A DNA stretch of 10,490 nucleotides from a virus, in UHGV virus genome UHGV-1619017. One strand, written 5' to 3'. This document shows, piece after piece, positions 1,319 to 7,270 of the stretch. The first letter of the stretch is position 1. The number at the start of each line of letters is the position of its first letter. The position numbers and the translations under genes were made by a program. Below the pieces are notes generated by a model that saw only the letters and a program-made list of their open reading frames with translations, was not told the DNA's origin and did no database searches.

Positions 1319-1339
1319 TTCCCGCCACAAGGGCGGGAA
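1319..1339 (-). terminator. GC-rich hairpin immediately 3' of the 163-aa gene; possible partial intrinsic terminator or mRNA stabiliser
   Basis: TTCCCGCC-acaag-GGCGGGAA, 8-bp perfect stem with 5-nt loop, beginning 5 nt after the stop codon (1345-1347). On the minus strand it is followed by UUCCUUGUAUUU, an interrupted U-tract. Confidence 0.35.
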
Positions 1340-2435: not shown

Positions 2436-2484
2436 ACGCTATTTCTCCCAGGTAGAGGCCACCTATGCAGGCGGCCTATGTCAC

Positions 2485-3219
2485 TTACAAACCGCGTTTT
2501 TTGCGAATGCGCATTGATTTTTTGCGGTTGATATTCGCTACGGATGTATGTGCTTTGCGGCGTGCTTTTTTCAGCGCCTGTTTTTGCAATGACGTCATGC
2601 GGCGAGGACGCGGGCGTTTACGGATGATGGTAACCTTGCCATCACGAACCACTTTTTTACGTACCGCTTCCAGCATTGCGCTATCACCACCAGCAACGGT
2701 GTAAATGGCAATAGCTGTTTCCATCATGTCGGTGTCGCTTTCGGAAAGAGCGTCATAAACACGTTCGGCAGCTGAGTCATCTTCATCGTCGATCATTTCG
2801 GTTACATCGTCCTGATCAGCGCCAAGCGCAACAGCTGCATCAGCAAGAGCTGCGAGAGCATCGTTATAAGCATCGATTTGCTCATCGGTGAAATCGGTGT
2901 CTTCATCGATATCAGCCAGGCCAGCCATAGTGATTGCTAATGCATCAAATGAGTCAGCCTCCGGATCACCATCTTCAACCCAACCAGCAAGCATGGAAGC
3001 TGCCAGGCTGCGCATATCACCTTGTGCACGGGATTCAACCGCTTCCATCATCGCGGTTTCAATGTCGTCTTTGGGCTTTGGTTGAGTGTCCTTTCCTTTC
3101 TGTCCTGCGCTTTCCAGCATGGCGTTATCATTATTGTCCTGCGTGGATTTATCACCGCTTTCAAAGCAGCCAGAACCGAAAATCGCACGCATAAAAGGAT
3201 CAGCAGTATAATTTTTCAT
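2485..3219 (-). CDS. Bipartite protein with a strongly acidic Asp/Glu-rich body and a highly basic Arg/Lys-rich C-terminal tail (244 aa from the ATG)
   Basis: The track start at 3225 is a TTG; the ATG at 3219..3217 is preceded by GGAGAGAGG with about 7 nt spacing and is the likelier start. Acidic region DIDEDTDFTDEQIDAYNDALAALADAAVALGADQDDVTEMIDDEDDSAAERVYDALSESDTDMMETA; basic tail KRPRPRRMTSLQKQALKKARRKAHTSVANINRKKSMRIRKKRGL. Antisense plus-strand ORFs in this span are short and lack ribosome-binding sites. Confidence 0.5.
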   Translation of the reverse strand: MKNYTADPFMRAIFGSGCFESGDKSTQDNNDNAMLESAGQKGKDTQPKPKDDIETAMMEAVESRAQGDMRSLAASMLAGWVEDGDPEADSFDALAITMAGLADIDEDTDFTDEQIDAYNDALAALADAAVALGADQDDVTEMIDDEDDSAAERVYDALSESDTDMMETAIAIYTVAGGDSAMLEAVRKKVVRDGKVTIIRKRPRPRRMTSLQKQALKKARRKAHTSVANINRKKSMRIRKKRGL

Positions 3220-3233
3220 ATTCAAACCTCTCT

Positions 3234-3255
3234 CCCCCGCATCATTTAGCGGGGG
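3234..3255 (-). other. GC-rich hairpin between the sheath stop and the ribosome-binding site of the acidic/basic protein gene
   Basis: CCCCCGC-atcattta-GCGGGGG, 7-bp stem with 8-nt loop, 7 nt after the sheath stop and directly 5' of the GAGAGG SD. No U-tract on the minus strand, so not a canonical terminator. Confidence 0.3.
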
Positions 3256-3262
3256 TTATAAA

Positions 3263-4921
3263 TCAGCGCATCAGAATTGGCTTACCGACGATTCGGCGAG
3301 CTGTACCGGTCGGACAAACAGACCAGGACACCTCCCACAGATCGATGTCCTTTTGGACAACCTGAACAACATATGGATCTTCACCCTGGGACTTGTCACG
3401 TGGAGTAACCAGCGCACCGGCTGCAACATAACGGTCAAGCAATTCAGTCATTGCTTTCATTAGCGTTTCTTTGGTAATGCCATCCGGTTCGTGCTTAATC
3501 GCCTGAGCTACTTCATAGAAATCTCTGGCGATGGCGTTCATCAAGGAAGACACATGCTGGAATCGCAGATAGTTGTTTTTGCTGTAAGTTGTTAAAGAGT
3601 CGTCAATGTAAACGGACCCGTCAGCAGCAACTGAAACTGGATTAATGCGCGCAAGAACGAACGCTTCACGATCAACTGCACCGATATTTGGAATTCGGGC
3701 AATGTTCTGTCGATCAATAATCGCGCGTGATATACCTGCCGGTGCGTAATGCCAACCACCAACATCCGGTACCAGCGCCACTCCTTTTGCTTTCGCTACG
3801 AATGCATCGCAACTGATGCCGTAAACAACATTCATACCGGTGAAGGTATCTCGGCAGGAGAATGGGAAGTAGTAGCGGCTTGGCTGGTGTGAGCCACCAA
3901 AACTATGGCTTTTAGCTTCTGAAATAGCATTTTCTGGTGTCTGGTTGCCCTTCAGGTCGTAGAACATGTCTACACGAACGTCTTCTGCCAGATTTTTGAG
4001 CGCGGCTAAGGCGGATGCGTCATAGCAGCCCAGTGACAGTAATGCGGTGTAATTAACCTCCGAGGCTTCGAGAACCTTTAATGCTTCCAGATAGTCTTCG
4101 GTGTCAATGGTGGACAAATCGCCATCAGTGCCGCCTTCAAAAGCCACATCCTCAAACATGAGTTGAGCAGCAGATGCTTCCGCATTATCTGCCAGGACGG
4201 CACCAATGCGAGTGGACTGGCTTTCAAGCAGTGTCGGAATCCATGCTGGTTGGCCCATGTCGTTAGTGCCTTCTGGATTGAAGGACACCTGGTGGCTTTC
4301 CAGCACCTCAACAGACCCATCGGTTTGTTTTTCTTTCAGCGTCAGCGTAAAGAGTTCACTTTCTTCATCATCGCGAGTTAGTGATAACGTGCGATTTTGA
4401 GATGCATCACCATCTTTGATGAAGAATAATGCCTTCCCTTCGTCTTTAATCTGGGGAGTTTCTTTTGGTGTGAAAGTTACTGATTGTGTCGTTGCAGTTG
4501 AAGCAACACCCACGCTCAATGTGTCACCTGGATTTACTGTGGTTTCAGCAGGTTCCACGGTAAGTGTTTTGTTGGCCTTTGCCGCTTTTGCTCTGCTCGC
4601 GACGGAAACAGAAATTCCCGGCACCTTCATGTCTTTAGCGCAAACACGAACGACATAACCAGAGCCACCTTTTACGGCACGCTCTACGTGGCGGTATGGT
4701 TCAAATGCCGATCCCAGGCGAGGGTGAATAGGTGAACCTAATACGCTTTGATAAGTCGTATCGTCAACTTTCAGCACTTTACCCGGTGCGCCACGACGCG
4801 ATATTACAAGCCCAGCAAAGACAGATGCGCCACCGCTGGTATTGGTGAGGGTAGCGTCAGCATTTACCGCCATTACAGCAACGCCAGCTGCCTGCCCTAC
4901 CGAAAAACTAATCTTATTCAT
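3263..4921 (-). CDS. Phage tail sheath protein (contractile tail), with an internal Ig-like insertion (552 aa)
   Basis: ATG at 4921..4919, stop TGA at 3265..3263. C-terminal half carries sheath-family landmarks as I recall them: YYFPF, GGWHYAPAGISRA (W-x-APA), ARINPVSVAADGSVYIDDSLT, YLRFQHVSSLMNAI, and a C-terminal beta segment VVQVVQKDIDLWEVSWSVCP. N-terminal AG...G...VLGSP pattern resembles sheath N-termini. Residues about 100-230 are Thr/Ser/Val-rich and Ig-like (LTVEPAETTVNPGDTLSVG). Confidence 0.65.
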   Translation of the reverse strand: MNKISFSVGQAAGVAVMAVNADATLTNTSGGASVFAGLVISRRGAPGKVLKVDDTTYQSVLGSPIHPRLGSAFEPYRHVERAVKGGSGYVVRVCAKDMKVPGISVSVASRAKAAKANKTLTVEPAETTVNPGDTLSVGVASTATTQSVTFTPKETPQIKDEGKALFFIKDGDASQNRTLSLTRDDEESELFTLTLKEKQTDGSVEVLESHQVSFNPEGTNDMGQPAWIPTLLESQSTRIGAVLADNAEASAAQLMFEDVAFEGGTDGDLSTIDTEDYLEALKVLEASEVNYTALLSLGCYDASALAALKNLAEDVRVDMFYDLKGNQTPENAISEAKSHSFGGSHQPSRYYFPFSCRDTFTGMNVVYGISCDAFVAKAKGVALVPDVGGWHYAPAGISRAIIDRQNIARIPNIGAVDREAFVLARINPVSVAADGSVYIDDSLTTYSKNNYLRFQHVSSLMNAIARDFYEVAQAIKHEPDGITKETLMKAMTELLDRYVAAGALVTPRDKSQGEDPYVVQVVQKDIDLWEVSWSVCPTGTARRIVGKPILMR

Positions 4922-4958
4922 GCTGTGTTCTTATCCTCTAAAGCGAGAGAACGAGGCA

Positions 4959-4985
4959 AGGCTACCCACGGTTAATGGGTAGCCT
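4959..4985 (-). other. Hairpin immediately 3' of the Ig-like gene and 5' of the sheath gene
   Basis: AGGCTACCCA-cggttaa-TGGGTAGCCT, 10-bp stem with 7-nt loop, 4 nt after the stop (4990-4992). Followed on the minus strand by a pyrimidine-rich but not U-rich tract. Possible attenuator or processing site. Confidence 0.3.
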
Positions 4986-4989
4986 CTGA

Positions 4990-5268
4990 TCAGGATTCGC
5001 CTACCGTGAAGTTGTCGCCTACGGTTACTTCTTTCGTAGTCGGTTCAACACTGACGGCGCTTACGCTTTTAGGTGCCTCCCTAACAGTGACCGTGCACTG
5101 TGCGGTTTTATTGCCGTCATTAGTTTTGATTGTCAGCACTGCCTGCCCTGCCTTAAGAGCGGTACATGTAGTGCCATCAACCCGGACAATTTCAGGGTGA
5201 TCGGACTCAACAGTGAAAGATTTGTCTGTTGCGTCAGATGGCGTGATAGTTACTTGAATGTTTGCCAT
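4990..5268 (-). CDS. Small Ig-like (Big_2-type) domain protein, possibly a virion decoration or accessory protein (92 aa)
   Basis: ATG at 5268..5266 with AGGAGA 5 nt upstream. Sequence FTVESDHPEIVRVDGTTCTALKAGQAVLTIKTNDGNKTAQCTVTV matches the bacterial Ig-like group 2 pattern (..VATVD..G.VTALKAG.A.ITA...DG.K.A.C.VTV). Ends inside what looks like the start of a second Ig repeat (SVSAVSVEPTTKEVTVGDNFTVGES). Confidence 0.6.
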   Translation of the reverse strand: MANIQVTITPSDATDKSFTVESDHPEIVRVDGTTCTALKAGQAVLTIKTNDGNKTAQCTVTVREAPKSVSAVSVEPTTKEVTVGDNFTVGES

Positions 5269-5280
5269 TTTTTCTCCTGA

Positions 5281-5301
5281 ACGCCCCTTAATCAGGGGCG
5301 T
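5281..5301 (-). other. Hairpin directly 5' of the SD of the Ig-like gene; reads as an intrinsic terminator only on the plus strand
   Basis: ACGCCCCT-taatc-AGGGGCGT, 8-bp stem. On the plus strand it is followed by GTTTTTGCC (terminator-like). On the coding minus strand it is preceded by an A-run and followed 2 nt later by AGGAGA-aaaaa-ATG. Confidence 0.3.
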
Positions 5302-5414
5302 GTTTTTGCCTTACTTCTGCTTTGTTTTTTTCTGTGCCTTTGAAGTGTTCGCGGCGATAGTTTCACCTTCATCTACGTCAAGTGACGTTGGTGATACCGA
5401 CACGTTCGCCACCA

Positions 5415-7112
5415 TCACTTTTTTTCGTTAACCTTGCCTGTCAGCATGTCGATAGCACCTTCTTTGGCACGAGTCAGACGCAGGCGGGCGAAATAATTCT
5501 CACCGTTGCGCGGGTGGACTTCGTTGATAGCACTACCCCAGAGAGTGGTGCGGTTAACGAGAGATGGATTGGTTTCGTGCACATACGGGATTGCTGGGAC
5601 CGCATCACCAGCGATCAGCCCGGCTTTACCGATGCCTTCACCGCGACCATAGAAATAAATGTCATCCAGACCTAAGTCATATCCCTGAGCCTTGAATTGC
5701 TCACACACAGGCTGCGGCACTTCGTAAATACGAATCGTGCCAAACAGGGTGCCGATGTACTGCACATACGGTGACTGAACGTAGCCCGGCGCGATTTGGA
5801 AGTGCTGTGGAGGCAGAGAACGCAGGAAGTTAGCTGCGTCACCACCTGCGAAGCCACCGCGAATACCTGTGGTCAGGGTGCGGTTTGCCATTTCCTGAGA
5901 CAGGGCGTTTACTGCGTGGCGCAGGAGGCCGACCCAGGACTCATAGTTTTGAGCTTCAGGCAGAGCCACATCAAATTCACGACCATAAACGGTATGGAAT
6001 ACCAGGGTGCGCAGACGCATGATGTCGGTTTCATGGGAGATCCAGTTCCGCATTGCGGAGAACTGAAGTGCCGCCAATTCAAGGCCGTGTTCACGGCTTA
6101 AATCGGAAGCGGACATTACGGTGTGTTCGGAAGCAATTACGTACTGAGACGGTCGAACTTCATACTTACGCATAGCCTGGTTGATTACCGGAATCAGGCT
6201 TGGATTGCGCTCGATGTTAATTTCGACCTGAACCGCAATTTCAGTCCCTTCTGCTGGCGCTTGAGTGAAGGTAATGTCGATGACACCAGTGTCATAAGCG
6301 ACTTTTGCGGTAGCTGAGAATGCATTGCCTTTGCAGTCTTTATCATTGAAATAAAGGTTGCCATCGCCGTCGTCAACCTTGGACGGTTTGCGGTTGATAA
6401 GCAGCTTGTTATAACCAGCACGCAGCGGGCAGGACTGCCCCTCAAAATTTTGGATGTCGAACTGGAAAGTTTTGGTGCTGCCGTCCCCTTTCGTGGAAAG
6501 GGTATACAGGCGCTTCATTTGAGAATAAACACCAGCGGATTGCATATTCAGTTCGTCACCTTGCTCGAAGGTGCCGAATTTTGTGCCTGCTACGTTGACC
6601 AGTTCATAAATATTTGACTCATCACGATCACAAGGAACAAAAGTACAGGCATCACTGGTAGCAGCACCCAGAGAGGCAGGCAGAATTAGTGCAGCATATT
6701 GAGCAACTTTCATTACGCCGTCAGAGCTACGCATTGATTGCGCGACAGACTCAAACATTGCCTTGCCAGTGCCTACGTGTGTATCGCTGGCACATTCAGT
6801 CATCAGGCGTTCAAGTGCCATGTGTGCGTTTGCCAGGATATCGCTTGCCGGGTAGTGACCATGCTGGCGCTTGTACTCATGCAGAGACATAGCCCACCCA
6901 CCAGCGATCTGACGTGCAACCTCTGGATTTACGCCTTCAAACATAGCCTCCTTCTGGATAGCTTTATCCAGGTTCTCCATCATCGCTGCCTGATCAGCAA
7001 TCATATTGCCCGCAGCATCGGTGGTCGGATCGACGGTCATAGCCATGACGCTTGCCGCCCGATTCATAATCTCGCGCTCGCGATCACGAGCTGGCTGAAT
7101 GTTTTTATTCAC
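5415..7112 (-). CDS. Putative major capsid (head) protein precursor, tentative (565 aa)
   Basis: Long ORF immediately upstream of the Ig-like and sheath genes in the same operon. Start at 7112 is GTG (the track shows M) with AGGG about 8 nt upstream. Size and position next to the sheath gene are consistent with a P1-type gene 23-like arrangement, but that is from memory. The Met/Ala-rich helical N-terminal 100-150 aa could be a cleaved propeptide. No motif-level proof of capsid fold. Confidence 0.4.
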   Translation of the reverse strand: MNKNIQPARDREREIMNRAASVMAMTVDPTTDAAGNMIADQAAMMENLDKAIQKEAMFEGVNPEVARQIAGGWAMSLHEYKRQHGHYPASDILANAHMALERLMTECASDTHVGTGKAMFESVAQSMRSSDGVMKVAQYAALILPASLGAATSDACTFVPCDRDESNIYELVNVAGTKFGTFEQGDELNMQSAGVYSQMKRLYTLSTKGDGSTKTFQFDIQNFEGQSCPLRAGYNKLLINRKPSKVDDGDGNLYFNDKDCKGNAFSATAKVAYDTGVIDITFTQAPAEGTEIAVQVEINIERNPSLIPVINQAMRKYEVRPSQYVIASEHTVMSASDLSREHGLELAALQFSAMRNWISHETDIMRLRTLVFHTVYGREFDVALPEAQNYESWVGLLRHAVNALSQEMANRTLTTGIRGGFAGGDAANFLRSLPPQHFQIAPGYVQSPYVQYIGTLFGTIRIYEVPQPVCEQFKAQGYDLGLDDIYFYGRGEGIGKAGLIAGDAVPAIPYVHETNPSLVNRTTLWGSAINEVHPRNGENYFARLRLTRAKEGAIDMLTGKVNEKK

Positions 7113-7270
7113 GGTTAAGCCCTAAATTCGGGCGCGGCGTGAAGGTTCTTTTGACGAGCTAACAATACCAACTTTGTTATTTAGTCAATAGCATTAGTAA
7201 AATAAAATCTATTAACACTTATATTGTTATGTGCTTTAATTTTAGTTTTCTAACACAAATTATTAGAGTT
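7113..7270. promoter_or_regulatory. AT-rich divergent intergenic region between the capsid candidate (minus) and the ribbon-helix-helix gene (plus); putative promoters and operators
   Basis: About 160 bp, markedly AT-rich from 7160. Repeated motif ATTGTTA/TAACAAT: TAACAATA at 7160-7167 (inverted), TTGTTAT at 7175-7181, TATTGTTAT at 7222-7230. Minus-strand TTGACT -35-like hexamer (reverse complement of 7183-7188) without a clean -10. Promoter positions not resolved. Confidence 0.35.

What the first reader, a model, noticed from the sequence alone, without database searches (positions are those of the whole stretch)
4959..5301. Ig-like gene bracketed by two GC-rich stem-loops between the capsid and sheath genes
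The 92-aa Ig-like gene has a hairpin 2 nt upstream of its SD (5281-5301) and another 4 nt after its stop (4959-4985). The arrangement looks like a self-contained cassette or a set of mRNA processing and stability elements that could uncouple its expression from the flanking structural genes. The upstream hairpin reads as a terminator only on the plus strand.
Basis: seen in the sequence. Interest (0 to 1): 0.4.

Follow-up and report, generated by a model that had tools for sequence, protein, structure and literature searches.

The report
Split Ig domain shared by capsid tail
The two stem-loops are real but ordinary spacers found between most genes of this phage's late operon; the unexpected part is that the small Ig-like gene lacks its first strands, which are encoded at the end of the capsid gene and reached by a ribosomal frameshift, so the capsid probably holds the Ig protein by completing its fold.

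Summary
The window is a D6-like, P1-family phage-plasmid. Its genes lie on the minus strand.

- **Hairpins:** both are real (dG -15.9 and -21.7, z -3.8 and -4.6) and conserved with compensatory changes. G.U intermediates fit only the sense-strand RNA.
- **Not specific to the Ig gene:** every intergenic spacer of 37 nt or more in this operon holds a similar GC-rich hairpin. P1-type relatives without an Ig gene keep the hairpin after the capsid gene.
- **Plus-strand terminator:** the plus-strand T-run of hairpin 1 is not conserved.
- **Split domain:** the 92-aa ORF matches only Big_2 profile positions 22-79. Positions 2-21 (strands A/A') lie upstream of hairpin 1, in the -1 frame of the capsid gene's 3' end.
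- **Frameshift:** this frame is entered at an A_AAA_AAG heptamer (5418-5424) followed by a stop. The heptamer is unchanged in all 32 loci of the D6 and Enterobacter types that passed the pattern filter; L023 has a 6-A run and L005 no match.
- **In-frame relative:** in L046/L047 the same strands are fused in frame to the capsid, yet the stop, hairpin, SD and ATG split persists.
- **Spare strands:** the Ig protein ends with a second, conserved A/A' segment.

Best reading (inferred): the capsid tail donates strands to the Ig protein in trans. The hairpins are generic intercistronic RNA elements.

The parts
5415..7112 (-). Major capsid protein gene (P1 gp23-like, 565 aa in frame 0), ending GAA AAA AAG TGA
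   Evidence: 97% aa identity to the phage D6 major capsid protein and 44% to P1 gp23
5418..5424 (-). A_AAA_AAG slippery heptamer, phased for -1 frameshifting, directly followed by the frame-0 stop TGA (5415-5417)
   Evidence: Read from the sequence. GAAAAAAAGT is unchanged in all 32 D6-type and Enterobacter-type loci that passed the pattern filter, although the flanks diverge; L023 (6 A) and L005 do not match. It is one of the three most efficient -1 motifs in E. coli (PMC4066793)
5311..5418 (-). -1 frame extension of the capsid protein, 35 aa: VMVANVSVSPTSLDVDEGETIAANTSKAQKKTKQK*. About 5347-5412 encodes Big_2 strands A, A' and the start of B (the donor segment); the rest is a variable Lys-rich tail. 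D6 annotates it as hypothetical orf50
   Evidence: Splicing it onto the Ig ORF extends the Pfam Big_2 match from profile 22-79 to 2-79 (35.8 to 42.8 bits); a shuffled control does not. pN/pS is 0.3-0.6 in this frame against about 1-4 in the other two. No start codon is possible in the Enterobacter type, and the segment is in frame 0 in L046/L047
5281..5301 (-). Hairpin 1: the post-capsid intercistronic stem-loop, 9 nt after the TAA of the extension and 2 nt before the SD
   Evidence: dG -15.9, z -3.8. C-G to A-U and U-A to U.G changes keep the stem. A comparable GC hairpin follows the capsid gene in all P1-supergroup loci, with or without an Ig gene
5266..5278 (-). SD AGGAG (5274-5278) and the ATG (5266-5268) of the Ig ORF
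   Evidence: GGAG and ATG are invariant in alignment A2. The spacing from the extension stop to this ATG is 0, 1 or 2 mod 3 in different haplotypes
4990..5268 (-). 92-aa Ig-like ORF (p92). Residues 1-63 (5080-5268) are Big_2 strands B-G only (the acceptor core). Residues 64-92 (4993-5079) are a linker plus a second A/A'/half-B segment, SVSAVSVEPTTKEVTVGDNFTVGES (a spare donor)
   Evidence: Pfam Big_2 profile 22-79 of 79 only. The same holds in the Enterobacter and L046 lineages. The C-terminal segment is under purifying selection, pN/pS about 0.1-0.4, and is conserved at 45% overall identity. Placed in front of the core it also restores profile 2-79
4958..4986 (-). Hairpin 2: the stem-loop after the Ig ORF, 31 nt upstream of the sheath ATG
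   Evidence: dG -21.7, z -4.6. Covariation as given in the observation check. Stepwise A-U, G.U, G-C and U-A, U.G, C-G series occur among haplotypes
3263..4921 (-). Tail sheath gene (P1 gp22-like)
   Evidence: D6 annotation and identity
3234..3255 (-). Intercistronic hairpin between the sheath and gp21 genes (CCCCCGC-uaaaugau-GCGGGGG)
   Evidence: dG -17.9 for the spacer
2456..2477 (-). Intercistronic hairpin between the gp21 and pmgG genes (AGGCCGCCU-gcau-AGGUGGCCU)
   Evidence: dG -16.2 for the spacer
1319..1339 (-). Intercistronic hairpin between the bplB and pmgC genes (UUCCCGCC-cuugu-GGCGGGAA)
   Evidence: dG -21.8 for the spacer, which includes a second small hairpin
7200..7220 (-). Only P1-late-promoter-like motif in the window (AAGTGTTAA-N4-TTTTAT), upstream of the capsid gene
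   Evidence: Resembles the annotated P1 LP23, AAGTGACTT-N4-TAAAAT. A regex scan finds no other copy

Best explanation
The capsid, Ig, sheath and downstream tail genes form one late operon. GC-rich stem-loops without U-tracts sit in every sizeable intergenic spacer. Hairpins 1 and 2 are two of these five. They most likely act at the RNA level, as 3'/5' stability barriers or weak attenuators that grade expression along the operon. This function is inferred, not shown.

The Ig gene is the larger piece of a split Big_2 domain. At the last two capsid codons, a fraction of ribosomes slips -1 on A_AAA_AAG. Those ribosomes add a 35-aa tail that carries Big_2 strands A, A' and the start of B. The tail stops before hairpin 1. 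The 92-aa protein is then translated from its own SD and ATG. It supplies strands B-G plus a second A/A' segment at its C-terminus.

The proposed mechanism is strand complementation. The capsid tail completes the Ig fold of p92 in trans, tethering it to the minority of capsid subunits that carry the tail. The spare donor of p92 could then recruit a further p92 head to tail, or pair in a swapped dimer.

Shown: the hairpins and their covariation; the split at profile level in three lineages; the conservation and coding signature of the tail; and its physical linkage to the capsid ORF. Inferred: the occurrence and efficiency of frameshifting, trans-complementation, chain formation, and what the hairpins do.
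For: - **Hairpins:** stability and z-scores; covariation of hairpin 2; G.U intermediates that would be C.A mismatches on the other strand; similar hairpins in three further spacers; a post-capsid hairpin in all P1-supergroup loci; a single late-promoter-like motif, upstream of the capsid gene.
- **Split domain:** p92 alone matches Big_2 22-79. With the capsid tail it matches 2-79 at 42.8 bits, with its own C-terminal segment 2-79 at 38.0 bits, and with a shuffled tail only 22-79. The Enterobacter and L046 lineages behave the same way. The spliced sequence aligns in one piece with contiguous tandem Big_2 in other phages and in PDB 7quz.
- **Structure model:** AF2 with a 100-row Big_2 alignment places tail residues 5-9, 12-16 and 20-25 as strands at pLDDT 95-97, on the p92 core. 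The 25-residue linker scores about 60. The model matches Big_2/Ig domains of lambda gpV and of capsid decoration and minor capsid proteins.
- **Frameshift:** the heptamer is invariant and correctly phased in the 32 matching loci. The -1 frame shows purifying selection. The Enterobacter type has no possible start codon. Rosenbergiella L012 has G_GGA_AAG TGA at the same place, followed 4 nt after the TGA by an 11-bp hairpin of about -21 kcal/mol. Both motifs are in the E. coli top three.
- **Linkage to the capsid:** in L046/L047 the donor segment is in frame 0 of the capsid gene, yet the stop, hairpin, SD and ATG split remains.
- **Module behaviour:** the tail and p92 diverge together (about 36-41% and 45-49% identity), while the capsid C-terminus stays 89-90% identical.
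Against: - No protein or RNA data exist for this element. The D6 record annotates the tail as a separate hypothetical ORF, and no frameshift is annotated anywhere.
- No significant stimulatory structure follows the heptamer in the window (z -0.65). Without stimulators such motifs shift at only about 0.3%, which is a few of the 775 capsid subunits reported for P1.
- pN/pS of the tail (0.3-0.6) shows weaker constraint than on p92.
- The AF2 result is steered by an alignment of contiguous Big_2 domains and models a single chain. It shows compatibility, not binding. The single-sequence run failed (pLDDT 36).
- Tail and p92 overlap by about 2 residues at the B strand, so the exact geometry is unknown.
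- The hairpins lack U-tracts, and their effect on transcripts is untested.
Confidence: 0.6

Rival explanations
1. One reading: the Ig gene with its two flanking stem-loops is a self-contained mobile or regulatory cassette (moron-like), and the hairpins specifically uncouple its expression from the capsid and sheath genes.
For: The Ig gene is present in D6-type elements and absent in P1-type and several D6-clade relatives. It is far more divergent (45-49%) than the flanking capsid and sheath ends (76-90%), which suggests module exchange. Both stems are conserved.
Against: Hairpin 1 is present at the capsid-sheath junction of relatives that lack the Ig gene, so it belongs to the capsid gene rather than the cassette. 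Comparable hairpins follow three other genes of the operon. The variable module extends upstream of hairpin 1 into the capsid tail, which carries the missing strands of the Ig domain. No promoter-like motif lies within the cassette.
Confidence: 0.2
2. Decayed remnant: an ancestral frameshift-added, continuous Big_2 extension of the capsid was broken by a stop and an acquired start. p92 now works alone as a soluble or capsid-binding Ig protein, and the capsid tail and the C-terminal segment are functionless leftovers.
For: Ig-like domains added to phage structural proteins by programmed frameshifts are well known (own knowledge: Fraser et al. 2006). The Lys-rich end of the tail is variable and tolerates a frameshift in L033. 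The tail is less constrained than p92.
Against: The same split point is kept in three lineages whose Ig modules are only 45-49% identical, including one where the tail is in frame 0. The C-terminal donor segment has pN/pS about 0.1-0.4. The heptamer is invariant in the 32 matching loci. The tail shows a coding signature only in the Big_2 frame.
Confidence: 0.15
3. Circular permutation in cis: the C-terminal A/A' segment of p92 folds back and completes its own domain, so p92 is a self-sufficient permuted Ig domain. The capsid tail is then a competitor or irrelevant.
For: The C-terminal segment placed before the core restores the full Big_2 profile match (38 bits) and is conserved.
Against: The G-to-A linker (REAPKSVSA) has the length of an ordinary inter-domain linker in tandem Big_2 arrays. 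In those arrays the next A strand starts at the far end of the domain, so reaching back within one chain is sterically unlikely (inference from the Ig topology; p92 aligns in register with tandem arrays). This view does not explain why a second donor is kept on the capsid protein in all three lineages.
Confidence: 0.15
4. The 34-35-aa extension is made as a separate small peptide by termination-reinitiation at the overlapping TGATG, not as a capsid fusion.
For: In the window and D6 an ATG overlaps the capsid stop (AAG TGA TGG), and D6 annotates it as orf50.
Against: The E. fergusonii, EC361 and S. dysenteriae clades read GTA GCA GTG with no ATG. The Enterobacter type has no ATG, GTG or TTG at all. 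L046/L047 fuse the segment in frame. The invariant A_AAA_AAG would be left unexplained.
Confidence: 0.07
5. Stop-codon readthrough or translational bypass joins the extension and p92 into one polypeptide. In this window they are in the same frame, separated by one TAA and 14 codons.
For: In the window the two ORFs are in frame, 42 nt apart, and AAN/MAN flank the gap.
Against: The spacing is 37, 38, 39, 42, 43 or 52 nt, i.e. 0, 1 or 2 mod 3, in other haplotypes, D6 itself included. The flanking codons do not match in other clades. The strong SD and ATG are invariant.
Confidence: 0.03
6. Hairpin 1 is an intrinsic terminator for plus-strand (antisense) transcription.
For: It scores as a terminator only on the plus strand, with tail GTTTTTGCC.
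Against: The T-run is absent in the E. fergusonii, EC361, Enterobacter and L046 variants. U.G variants of the stem would be A.C mismatches on the plus strand. No plus-strand gene or promoter-like site faces it.
Confidence: 0.05

Closest known systems
T7 gene 10A/10B and Listeria phage A118/PSA capsid frameshift products (own knowledge: Condron et al. 1991; Zimmer et al. 2003)
   Same: A programmed frameshift close to the end of the major capsid gene makes a minority of subunits with a C-terminal extension exposed on the head. T7-like 'minor capsid proteins' with Big_2 domains are among the fold matches.
   Different: Here the extension is only the first 2-3 strands of an Ig domain, and the rest is a separate gene product. 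Frameshifting has not been demonstrated for this phage.
Ig-like (Big_2, I-set, FN3) domains added to phage structural proteins, often by programmed frameshifts (own knowledge: Fraser et al. 2006), e.g. the lambda gpV C-terminal domain
   Same: A Big_2 fold on a virion surface protein. The model matches lambda gpV (7t4f, 2l04) and phage decoration and major tail proteins.
   Different: Known cases carry whole domains on one polypeptide. Here the domain is divided between two polypeptides at a conserved point.
E. coli dnaX and lambda G/GT -1 frameshift sites
   Same: The same heptamers: A_AAA_AAG as in dnaX, and G_GGA_AAG as in lambda G/GT in the Rosenbergiella relative. Both rank in the E. coli top three.
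   Different: No clear upstream SD or downstream stimulator in the window. The shift site is the last two sense codons, with the frame-0 stop adjacent.
Donor-strand complementation in chaperone-usher pili, and the engineered split Ig-like domains SpyTag/SpyCatcher (own knowledge)
   Same: An Ig-like fold lacking an edge strand is completed by a strand from another polypeptide. A subunit that carries both an acceptor site and a spare donor can polymerise head to tail.
   Different: The missing strands here are N-terminal (A/A'), not the C-terminal G strand. There is no chaperone, usher or isopeptide chemistry, and no sequence relationship. Complementation is inferred only.
Intercistronic stem-loops that grade expression in polycistronic mRNAs (REP/malEFG, puf operon, phage late operons; own knowledge)
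   Same: GC-rich hairpins without U-tracts between genes of unequal required abundance, conserved in structure rather than sequence.
   Different: They are not a repeated sequence family. There is no Rfam match and no transcript data.
Phage P1 capsid (T=13, 775 gp23, no cement or decoration protein; PMC12810830)
   Same: A homologous capsid protein (44% identity), the same gene order, and the same post-capsid hairpin.
   Different: P1 has no slippery site in phase, no tail and no Ig gene.

Membership tests
Pfam Big_2 (PF02368) Ig-like domain | Profile match above the gathering score | tested here: met
   p92 scores 34.1 bits against a cutoff of 22.8. L046 p97 scores 29.4 and Enterobacter p92 25.5.
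Pfam Big_2 (PF02368) Ig-like domain | A complete domain (profile about 1-79, strands A-G) on one polypeptide | tested here: not met
   Only profile 22/23-79 is present in p92 in all three lineages. Positions 2-21 appear only when the capsid tail or the C-terminal segment is spliced on.
Programmed -1 ribosomal frameshift site | An X_XXY_YYZ heptamer in the correct phase of the upstream ORF | tested here: met
   A_AAA_AAG at 5418-5424 with frame-0 codons AAA AAG.
Programmed -1 ribosomal frameshift site | Conservation of the heptamer, and a -1 ORF with a coding signature | tested here: met
   The heptamer is identical in the 32 matching loci in 25 haplotypes. pN/pS is 0.3-0.6 in the -1 frame against about 1-4 in the other frames. 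The -1 product is homologous to Big_2 strands.
Programmed -1 ribosomal frameshift site | A stimulatory element (downstream hairpin or pseudoknot, or an upstream SD-like sequence) | tested here: inconclusive
   In the window the downstream fold has z -0.65, and the consensus fold has little covariation. Only an adjacent stop codon is present. The relative L012 has a clear 11-bp hairpin 4 nt after the stop.
Programmed -1 ribosomal frameshift site | A trans-frame protein is detected | not testable with these tools
   This needs virion mass spectrometry or a reporter assay.
Rho-independent (intrinsic) terminator | A GC-rich stem-loop | tested here: met
   Hairpins 1 and 2.
Rho-independent (intrinsic) terminator | A U-tract directly 3' of the stem on the transcribed (minus) strand | tested here: not met
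   The tails are UUCAGGAG (hairpin 1) and UUGCCUCG (hairpin 2). The scan calls no minus-strand terminator. Only the L046, L006 and L016 variants have U-richer tails.
Donor-strand complementation / split Ig domain | An acceptor subunit with an incomplete Ig fold | tested here: met
   At profile level only: p92 lacks Big_2 positions 1-21.
Donor-strand complementation / split Ig domain | A partner polypeptide that carries the missing strand(s) | tested here: met
   The capsid tail matches profile 2-21. AF2 places it as strands on the core at pLDDT 95-97, in a single-chain model steered by its alignment.
Donor-strand complementation / split Ig domain | A physical complex in which the donor strand completes the fold | not testable with these tools
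   No multimer prediction or experiment was available.
Moron / self-contained cassette | Own promoter and terminator, and function independent of its neighbours | tested here: not met
   There is no promoter-like site. Hairpin 1 predates the insert. The coding content depends on the capsid tail.

The most novel reading that the evidence does not exclude
D6-like phage-plasmids decorate their heads with a natural split Ig domain. A capsid C-terminal tail, added by -1 frameshifting in two lineages and fused in frame in a third, inserts its A/A' strands into an incomplete Big_2 protein. Because that protein carries its own spare A/A' donor, it polymerises head to tail into Ig fibres whose anchor number is set by the frameshift rate.
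Probability: 0.35. Interest if true: 0.8.

Novelty: new variant of a known kind. Interest (0 to 1): 0.62.

Why it matters
On their own the hairpins are routine. The split domain is not.

If the capsid tail really completes the Ig fold of a separately made protein, this would be a previously undescribed way of attaching decoration proteins to a phage head. It would be a natural counterpart of donor-strand exchange and of engineered split-Ig tags. Copy number would be tunable through frameshift efficiency.

It would also give an unannotated recoding event in a widespread family of E. coli, Salmonella and Shigella phage-plasmids (122 plasmid records in PLSDB). Annotation pipelines currently call only 'capsid protein' and 'Ig-like domain-containing protein' there.

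The idea is directly testable by virion mass spectrometry, a frameshift reporter, peptide-p92 binding and cryo-EM. A short capsid tag that captures an Ig module could be useful for phage display on P1-type particles.

Tried and rejected
- **Readthrough or bypass across hairpin 1:** rejected, because the gap length is 0, 1 or 2 mod 3 among haplotypes and the flanking codons differ.
- **Plus-strand terminator:** the T-run is not conserved.
- **Known RNA family:** no Rfam match at E up to 1.
- **Separate small peptide starting at TGATG:** other lineages have no start codon there.
- **Hairpin 1 as the frameshift stimulator:** it lies about 115 nt downstream of the heptamer, which is too far. The local downstream fold is not significant in the window.
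- **AF2 on the single sequence:** failed (pLDDT 36).
- **Profile search of 1.84 billion representatives with the p92 family:** returned only giant tandem Big_2 proteins. These confirmed the repeat register but found no other small split proteins.
- **Word-indexed protein search:** gave only close D6-type homologues.
- **D6 genome paper (PMC5800970):** not held in the library, so I could not check whether its authors discuss orf49/orf50.
- **P1 RNA-seq paper:** gave no usable information on ends at the 23-22 junction.
- **L023:** its 6-A run and 577-aa 'capsid' shift into the other frame, in an IS91-disrupted element. I treated it as a defect or sequencing error, not as a natural fusion.
Full report
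**Identity of the window.** Bases 3200-7200 are 94% identical to Escherichia phage D6, a P1-like plasmid prophage. The genes lie on the minus strand. In order they are:
- the capsid gene (P1 gp23-like, 5415-7112);
- a 105-nt 'hypothetical orf50';
- the 92-aa 'structural protein with Ig domain' (4990-5268);
- the sheath gene (gp22-like, 3263-4921);
- gp21, pmgG, bplB, pmgC and tub.

The 601-nt region around the finding occurs in 122 PLSDB plasmids of E. coli, Salmonella and Shigella.

- As sense-strand RNA, 5281-5301 folds into an 8-bp GC stem (dG -15.9, z -3.84).
- 4958-4986 folds into a 12-bp stem (dG -21.7, z -4.56).
- Neither value was reached by any of 200 dinucleotide shuffles.
- Only on the plus strand does hairpin 1 score as a terminator.

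**The stems are conserved RNA structures.**
- Eight distinct D6-type versions of hairpin 2 keep 99% of cells paired. Five of 12 pairs carry changes on both sides. The covariation score is 0.48 against 0.23 in shuffles (0 of 500) and 0.15 or less when the partner is slid.
- Haplotypes form stepwise series: A-U (window), G.U (D6), G-C (L040); and U-A, U.G, C-G (L021, L003, L044).
- Hairpin 1 shows a C-G to A-U change (EC361) and a U-A to U.G change (L021 group).
- The G.U intermediates would be C.A mismatches on the other strand, so the selected structure is in the mRNA.
- The plus-strand T-run exists only in the window/D6 subclade.

**The hairpins are not specific to the Ig gene.**
- Every intergenic spacer of 37 nt or more in this operon holds a GC-rich hairpin without a U-tract. 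Besides the two under study, these are sheath-gp21 (3234-3255), gp21-pmgG (2456-2477) and bplB-pmgC (1319-1339).
- P1, JK004 and eleven genome-derived relatives lack the Ig gene. They still have a GC hairpin between the capsid stop and the sheath SD, for example GCGCCCC-cgtgc-GGGGCGC in P1. Stem sequences vary among them.
- Only one motif in the window resembles the annotated P1 late promoter LP23, and it lies upstream of the capsid gene.
- I therefore read hairpin 1 as the ancestral post-capsid stem-loop and hairpin 2 as one more intercistronic stem-loop.
- Their likely role is to grade mRNA stability or read-through along one late transcript. This is inference. There is no U-tract, no Rfam family and no transcript data.

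**The Ig gene is incomplete.**
- Pfam matches p92 only to Big_2 profile positions 22-79 of 79.
- The capsid ORF ends GAA AAA AAG TGA. This is A_AAA_AAG in the phase required for -1 slippage.
- The -1 frame then reads VMVANVSVSPTSLDVDEGETIAANTSKAQKKTKQK*, stopping 9 nt before hairpin 1.
- The table shows how the Pfam match changes when different segments are joined to the p92 core.

| Construct | Big_2 profile matched | Score (bits) |
|---|---|---|
| p92 core alone | 22-79 | 35.8 |
| Capsid tail + core | 2-79 | 42.8 |
| p92's own C-terminal segment + core | 2-79 | 38.0 |
| Shuffled tail + core | 22-79 | 34.5 |

- The spliced sequence aligns in one piece with contiguous tandem Big_2 in other phages and with PDB 7quz, leaving a 2-residue excess at the junction.
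- So p92 consists of strands B-G, a linker and a spare A/A'/half-B segment. The capsid tail is another A/A'/half-B segment.

**The tail belongs to the capsid protein.**
- GAAAAAAAGT is identical in all 32 D6-type and Enterobacter-type loci that passed the pattern filter, across 25 haplotypes, although the flanks diverge. L023 has a 6-A run and L005 has no match.
- Between clades the tail has pN/pS 0.3-0.6 in the Big_2 frame, against about 1-4 in the other two frames.
- The E. fergusonii and EC361 clades have no ATG at the tail start. The Enterobacter lineage has no possible start codon at all.
- In two IMG/VR contigs from different samples (L046, L047) the capsid C-terminus is 90% identical to the window's. 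There the donor segment lies in frame 0: ...TGQVNGTSGTVVEGVTLSPASITVSAGDEITAGNTKKDS*.
- In those contigs it is still followed by a stop, a hairpin, an SD, an ATG and a Big_2 23-79 protein that ends in another donor-like segment.
- A Rosenbergiella relative has G_GGA_AAG TGA at the same place. An 11-bp hairpin follows 4 nt after the stop, and an 80-aa Ala/Lys-rich -1 ORF follows. Recoding at the capsid terminus therefore recurs in this clade.
- A_AAA_AAG and G_GGA_AAG are two of the three best -1 motifs in E. coli. Without stimulators they shift at about 0.3% (PMC4066793).
- The window has no significant downstream structure. The tail is therefore expected on a small minority of the roughly 775 subunits of a P1-type T=13 head (PMC12810830). 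P1 itself has no cement proteins.

**The split is maintained, not accidental.**
- Three lineages with Ig modules only 45-49% identical share the same break point.
- The SD and ATG of p92 are invariant.
- The C-terminal donor segment of p92 has pN/pS about 0.1-0.4, similar to the core at 0.11-0.25.
- The distance from the tail stop to the p92 ATG is 0, 1 or 2 mod 3 in different haplotypes. That excludes readthrough or bypass.
- The tail diverges in step with p92 (about 36-41% and 45-49% identity) rather than with the capsid body (89-90%). This is as expected if the two interact.

**Structure prediction.**
- The natural readthrough sequence (tail, 25-residue linker, p92) gave nothing as a single sequence.
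- With 100 trimmed Big_2 repeat units as the alignment it gave pLDDT 89.
- In that model, tail residues 5-9, 12-16 and 20-25 form strands at pLDDT 95-97 on the p92 sandwich. The linker scores about 60.
- The model matches Big_2/Ig domains of 7quz, lambda gpV, N4 and mycobacteriophage capsid proteins, and predicted decoration and minor capsid proteins.
- The alignment consists of contiguous domains, so this result shows compatibility only.

**Proposed mechanism (inferred).**
- The capsid tail completes the p92 fold in trans and tethers it to the head.
- The spare donor of p92 can engage another p92, either as a chain or as a swapped dimer.
- The frameshift rate, or in-frame fusion in L046, sets the number of anchors.
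- Rivals are a decayed remnant, cis circular permutation, an independent peptide, readthrough, and a plus-strand terminator. Each is weighed in its own section of this report.

**Novelty.** Frameshift-extended capsid proteins and frameshift-added Ig domains are known. A conserved two-polypeptide Ig domain on a capsid is, as far as I could find, not described. I could not read the D6 genome paper.

Noticed in passing
L012 4690-4975 (Rosenbergiella metrosideri contig NZ_JALBCV010000011.1): A P1-like capsid gene ends GCG GGA AAG TGA (G_GGA_AAG, the lambda G/GT heptamer). An 11-bp hairpin (fold about -21 kcal/mol) follows 4 nt after the stop, and the -1 frame encodes an 80-aa Ala/Lys/Asp/Gln-rich extension. 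This looks like an unannotated capsid frameshift with a different payload.
   Followed up: partly
window 1319-1339, 2456-2477, 3234-3255: Three further GC-rich intercistronic hairpins without U-tracts lie in the same late operon, after bplB, gp21 and the sheath gene. Every spacer of 37 nt or more has one.
   Followed up: partly
L046/L047 (IMG/VR UViG_3300025735_000294 and 3300013827_000023), about 2330-2830: A third lineage in which the Big_2 donor strands are fused in frame to the capsid protein, with no slippery site. Here hairpin 2 has a U-rich tail (UUUUCUGA).
   Followed up: partly
L023 2573-4500 (E. coli plasmid NZ_CP122828.1): The A-run has 6 A instead of 7, giving a 577-aa annotated 'capsid protein' in the wrong frame. 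An IS91-family element truncates the Ig gene and replaces the sheath region. This is probably a defective prophage or a homopolymer sequencing error.
   Followed up: partly
window about 7200-7220 (minus strand): AAGTGTTAA-N4-TTTTAT resembles the annotated P1 late promoter LP23 (AAGTGACTT-N4-TAAAAT). It is the only such motif in the window, which suggests one late transcript from the capsid gene to tub.
   Followed up: partly
window 5311-5346; L033: The Lys-rich end of the capsid tail (TSKAQKKTKQK) contains a second A7 run. L033 carries a frameshift there that changes the tail end to ...KKQSRSKAKTRP*. The tail end therefore seems unconstrained, and it is absent in the Enterobacter lineage.
   Followed up: no
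window 4990-5420 compared with its flanks: Synonymous divergence between clades is much lower in the capsid tail (pS 0.2-0.36) than in p92 (pS 0.5-0.7). This points to a recombination boundary or extra RNA-level constraint near the frameshift site.
   Followed up: no
L009, L010, L015, L011, L016, L018: Relatives without the Ig gene carry frame-0 low-complexity C-terminal capsid tails of 14-70 aa (for example ...PETATTGTAS and ...KATKPQK). The capsid C-terminus therefore appears to be a general site for appendages in this supergroup.
   Followed up: no
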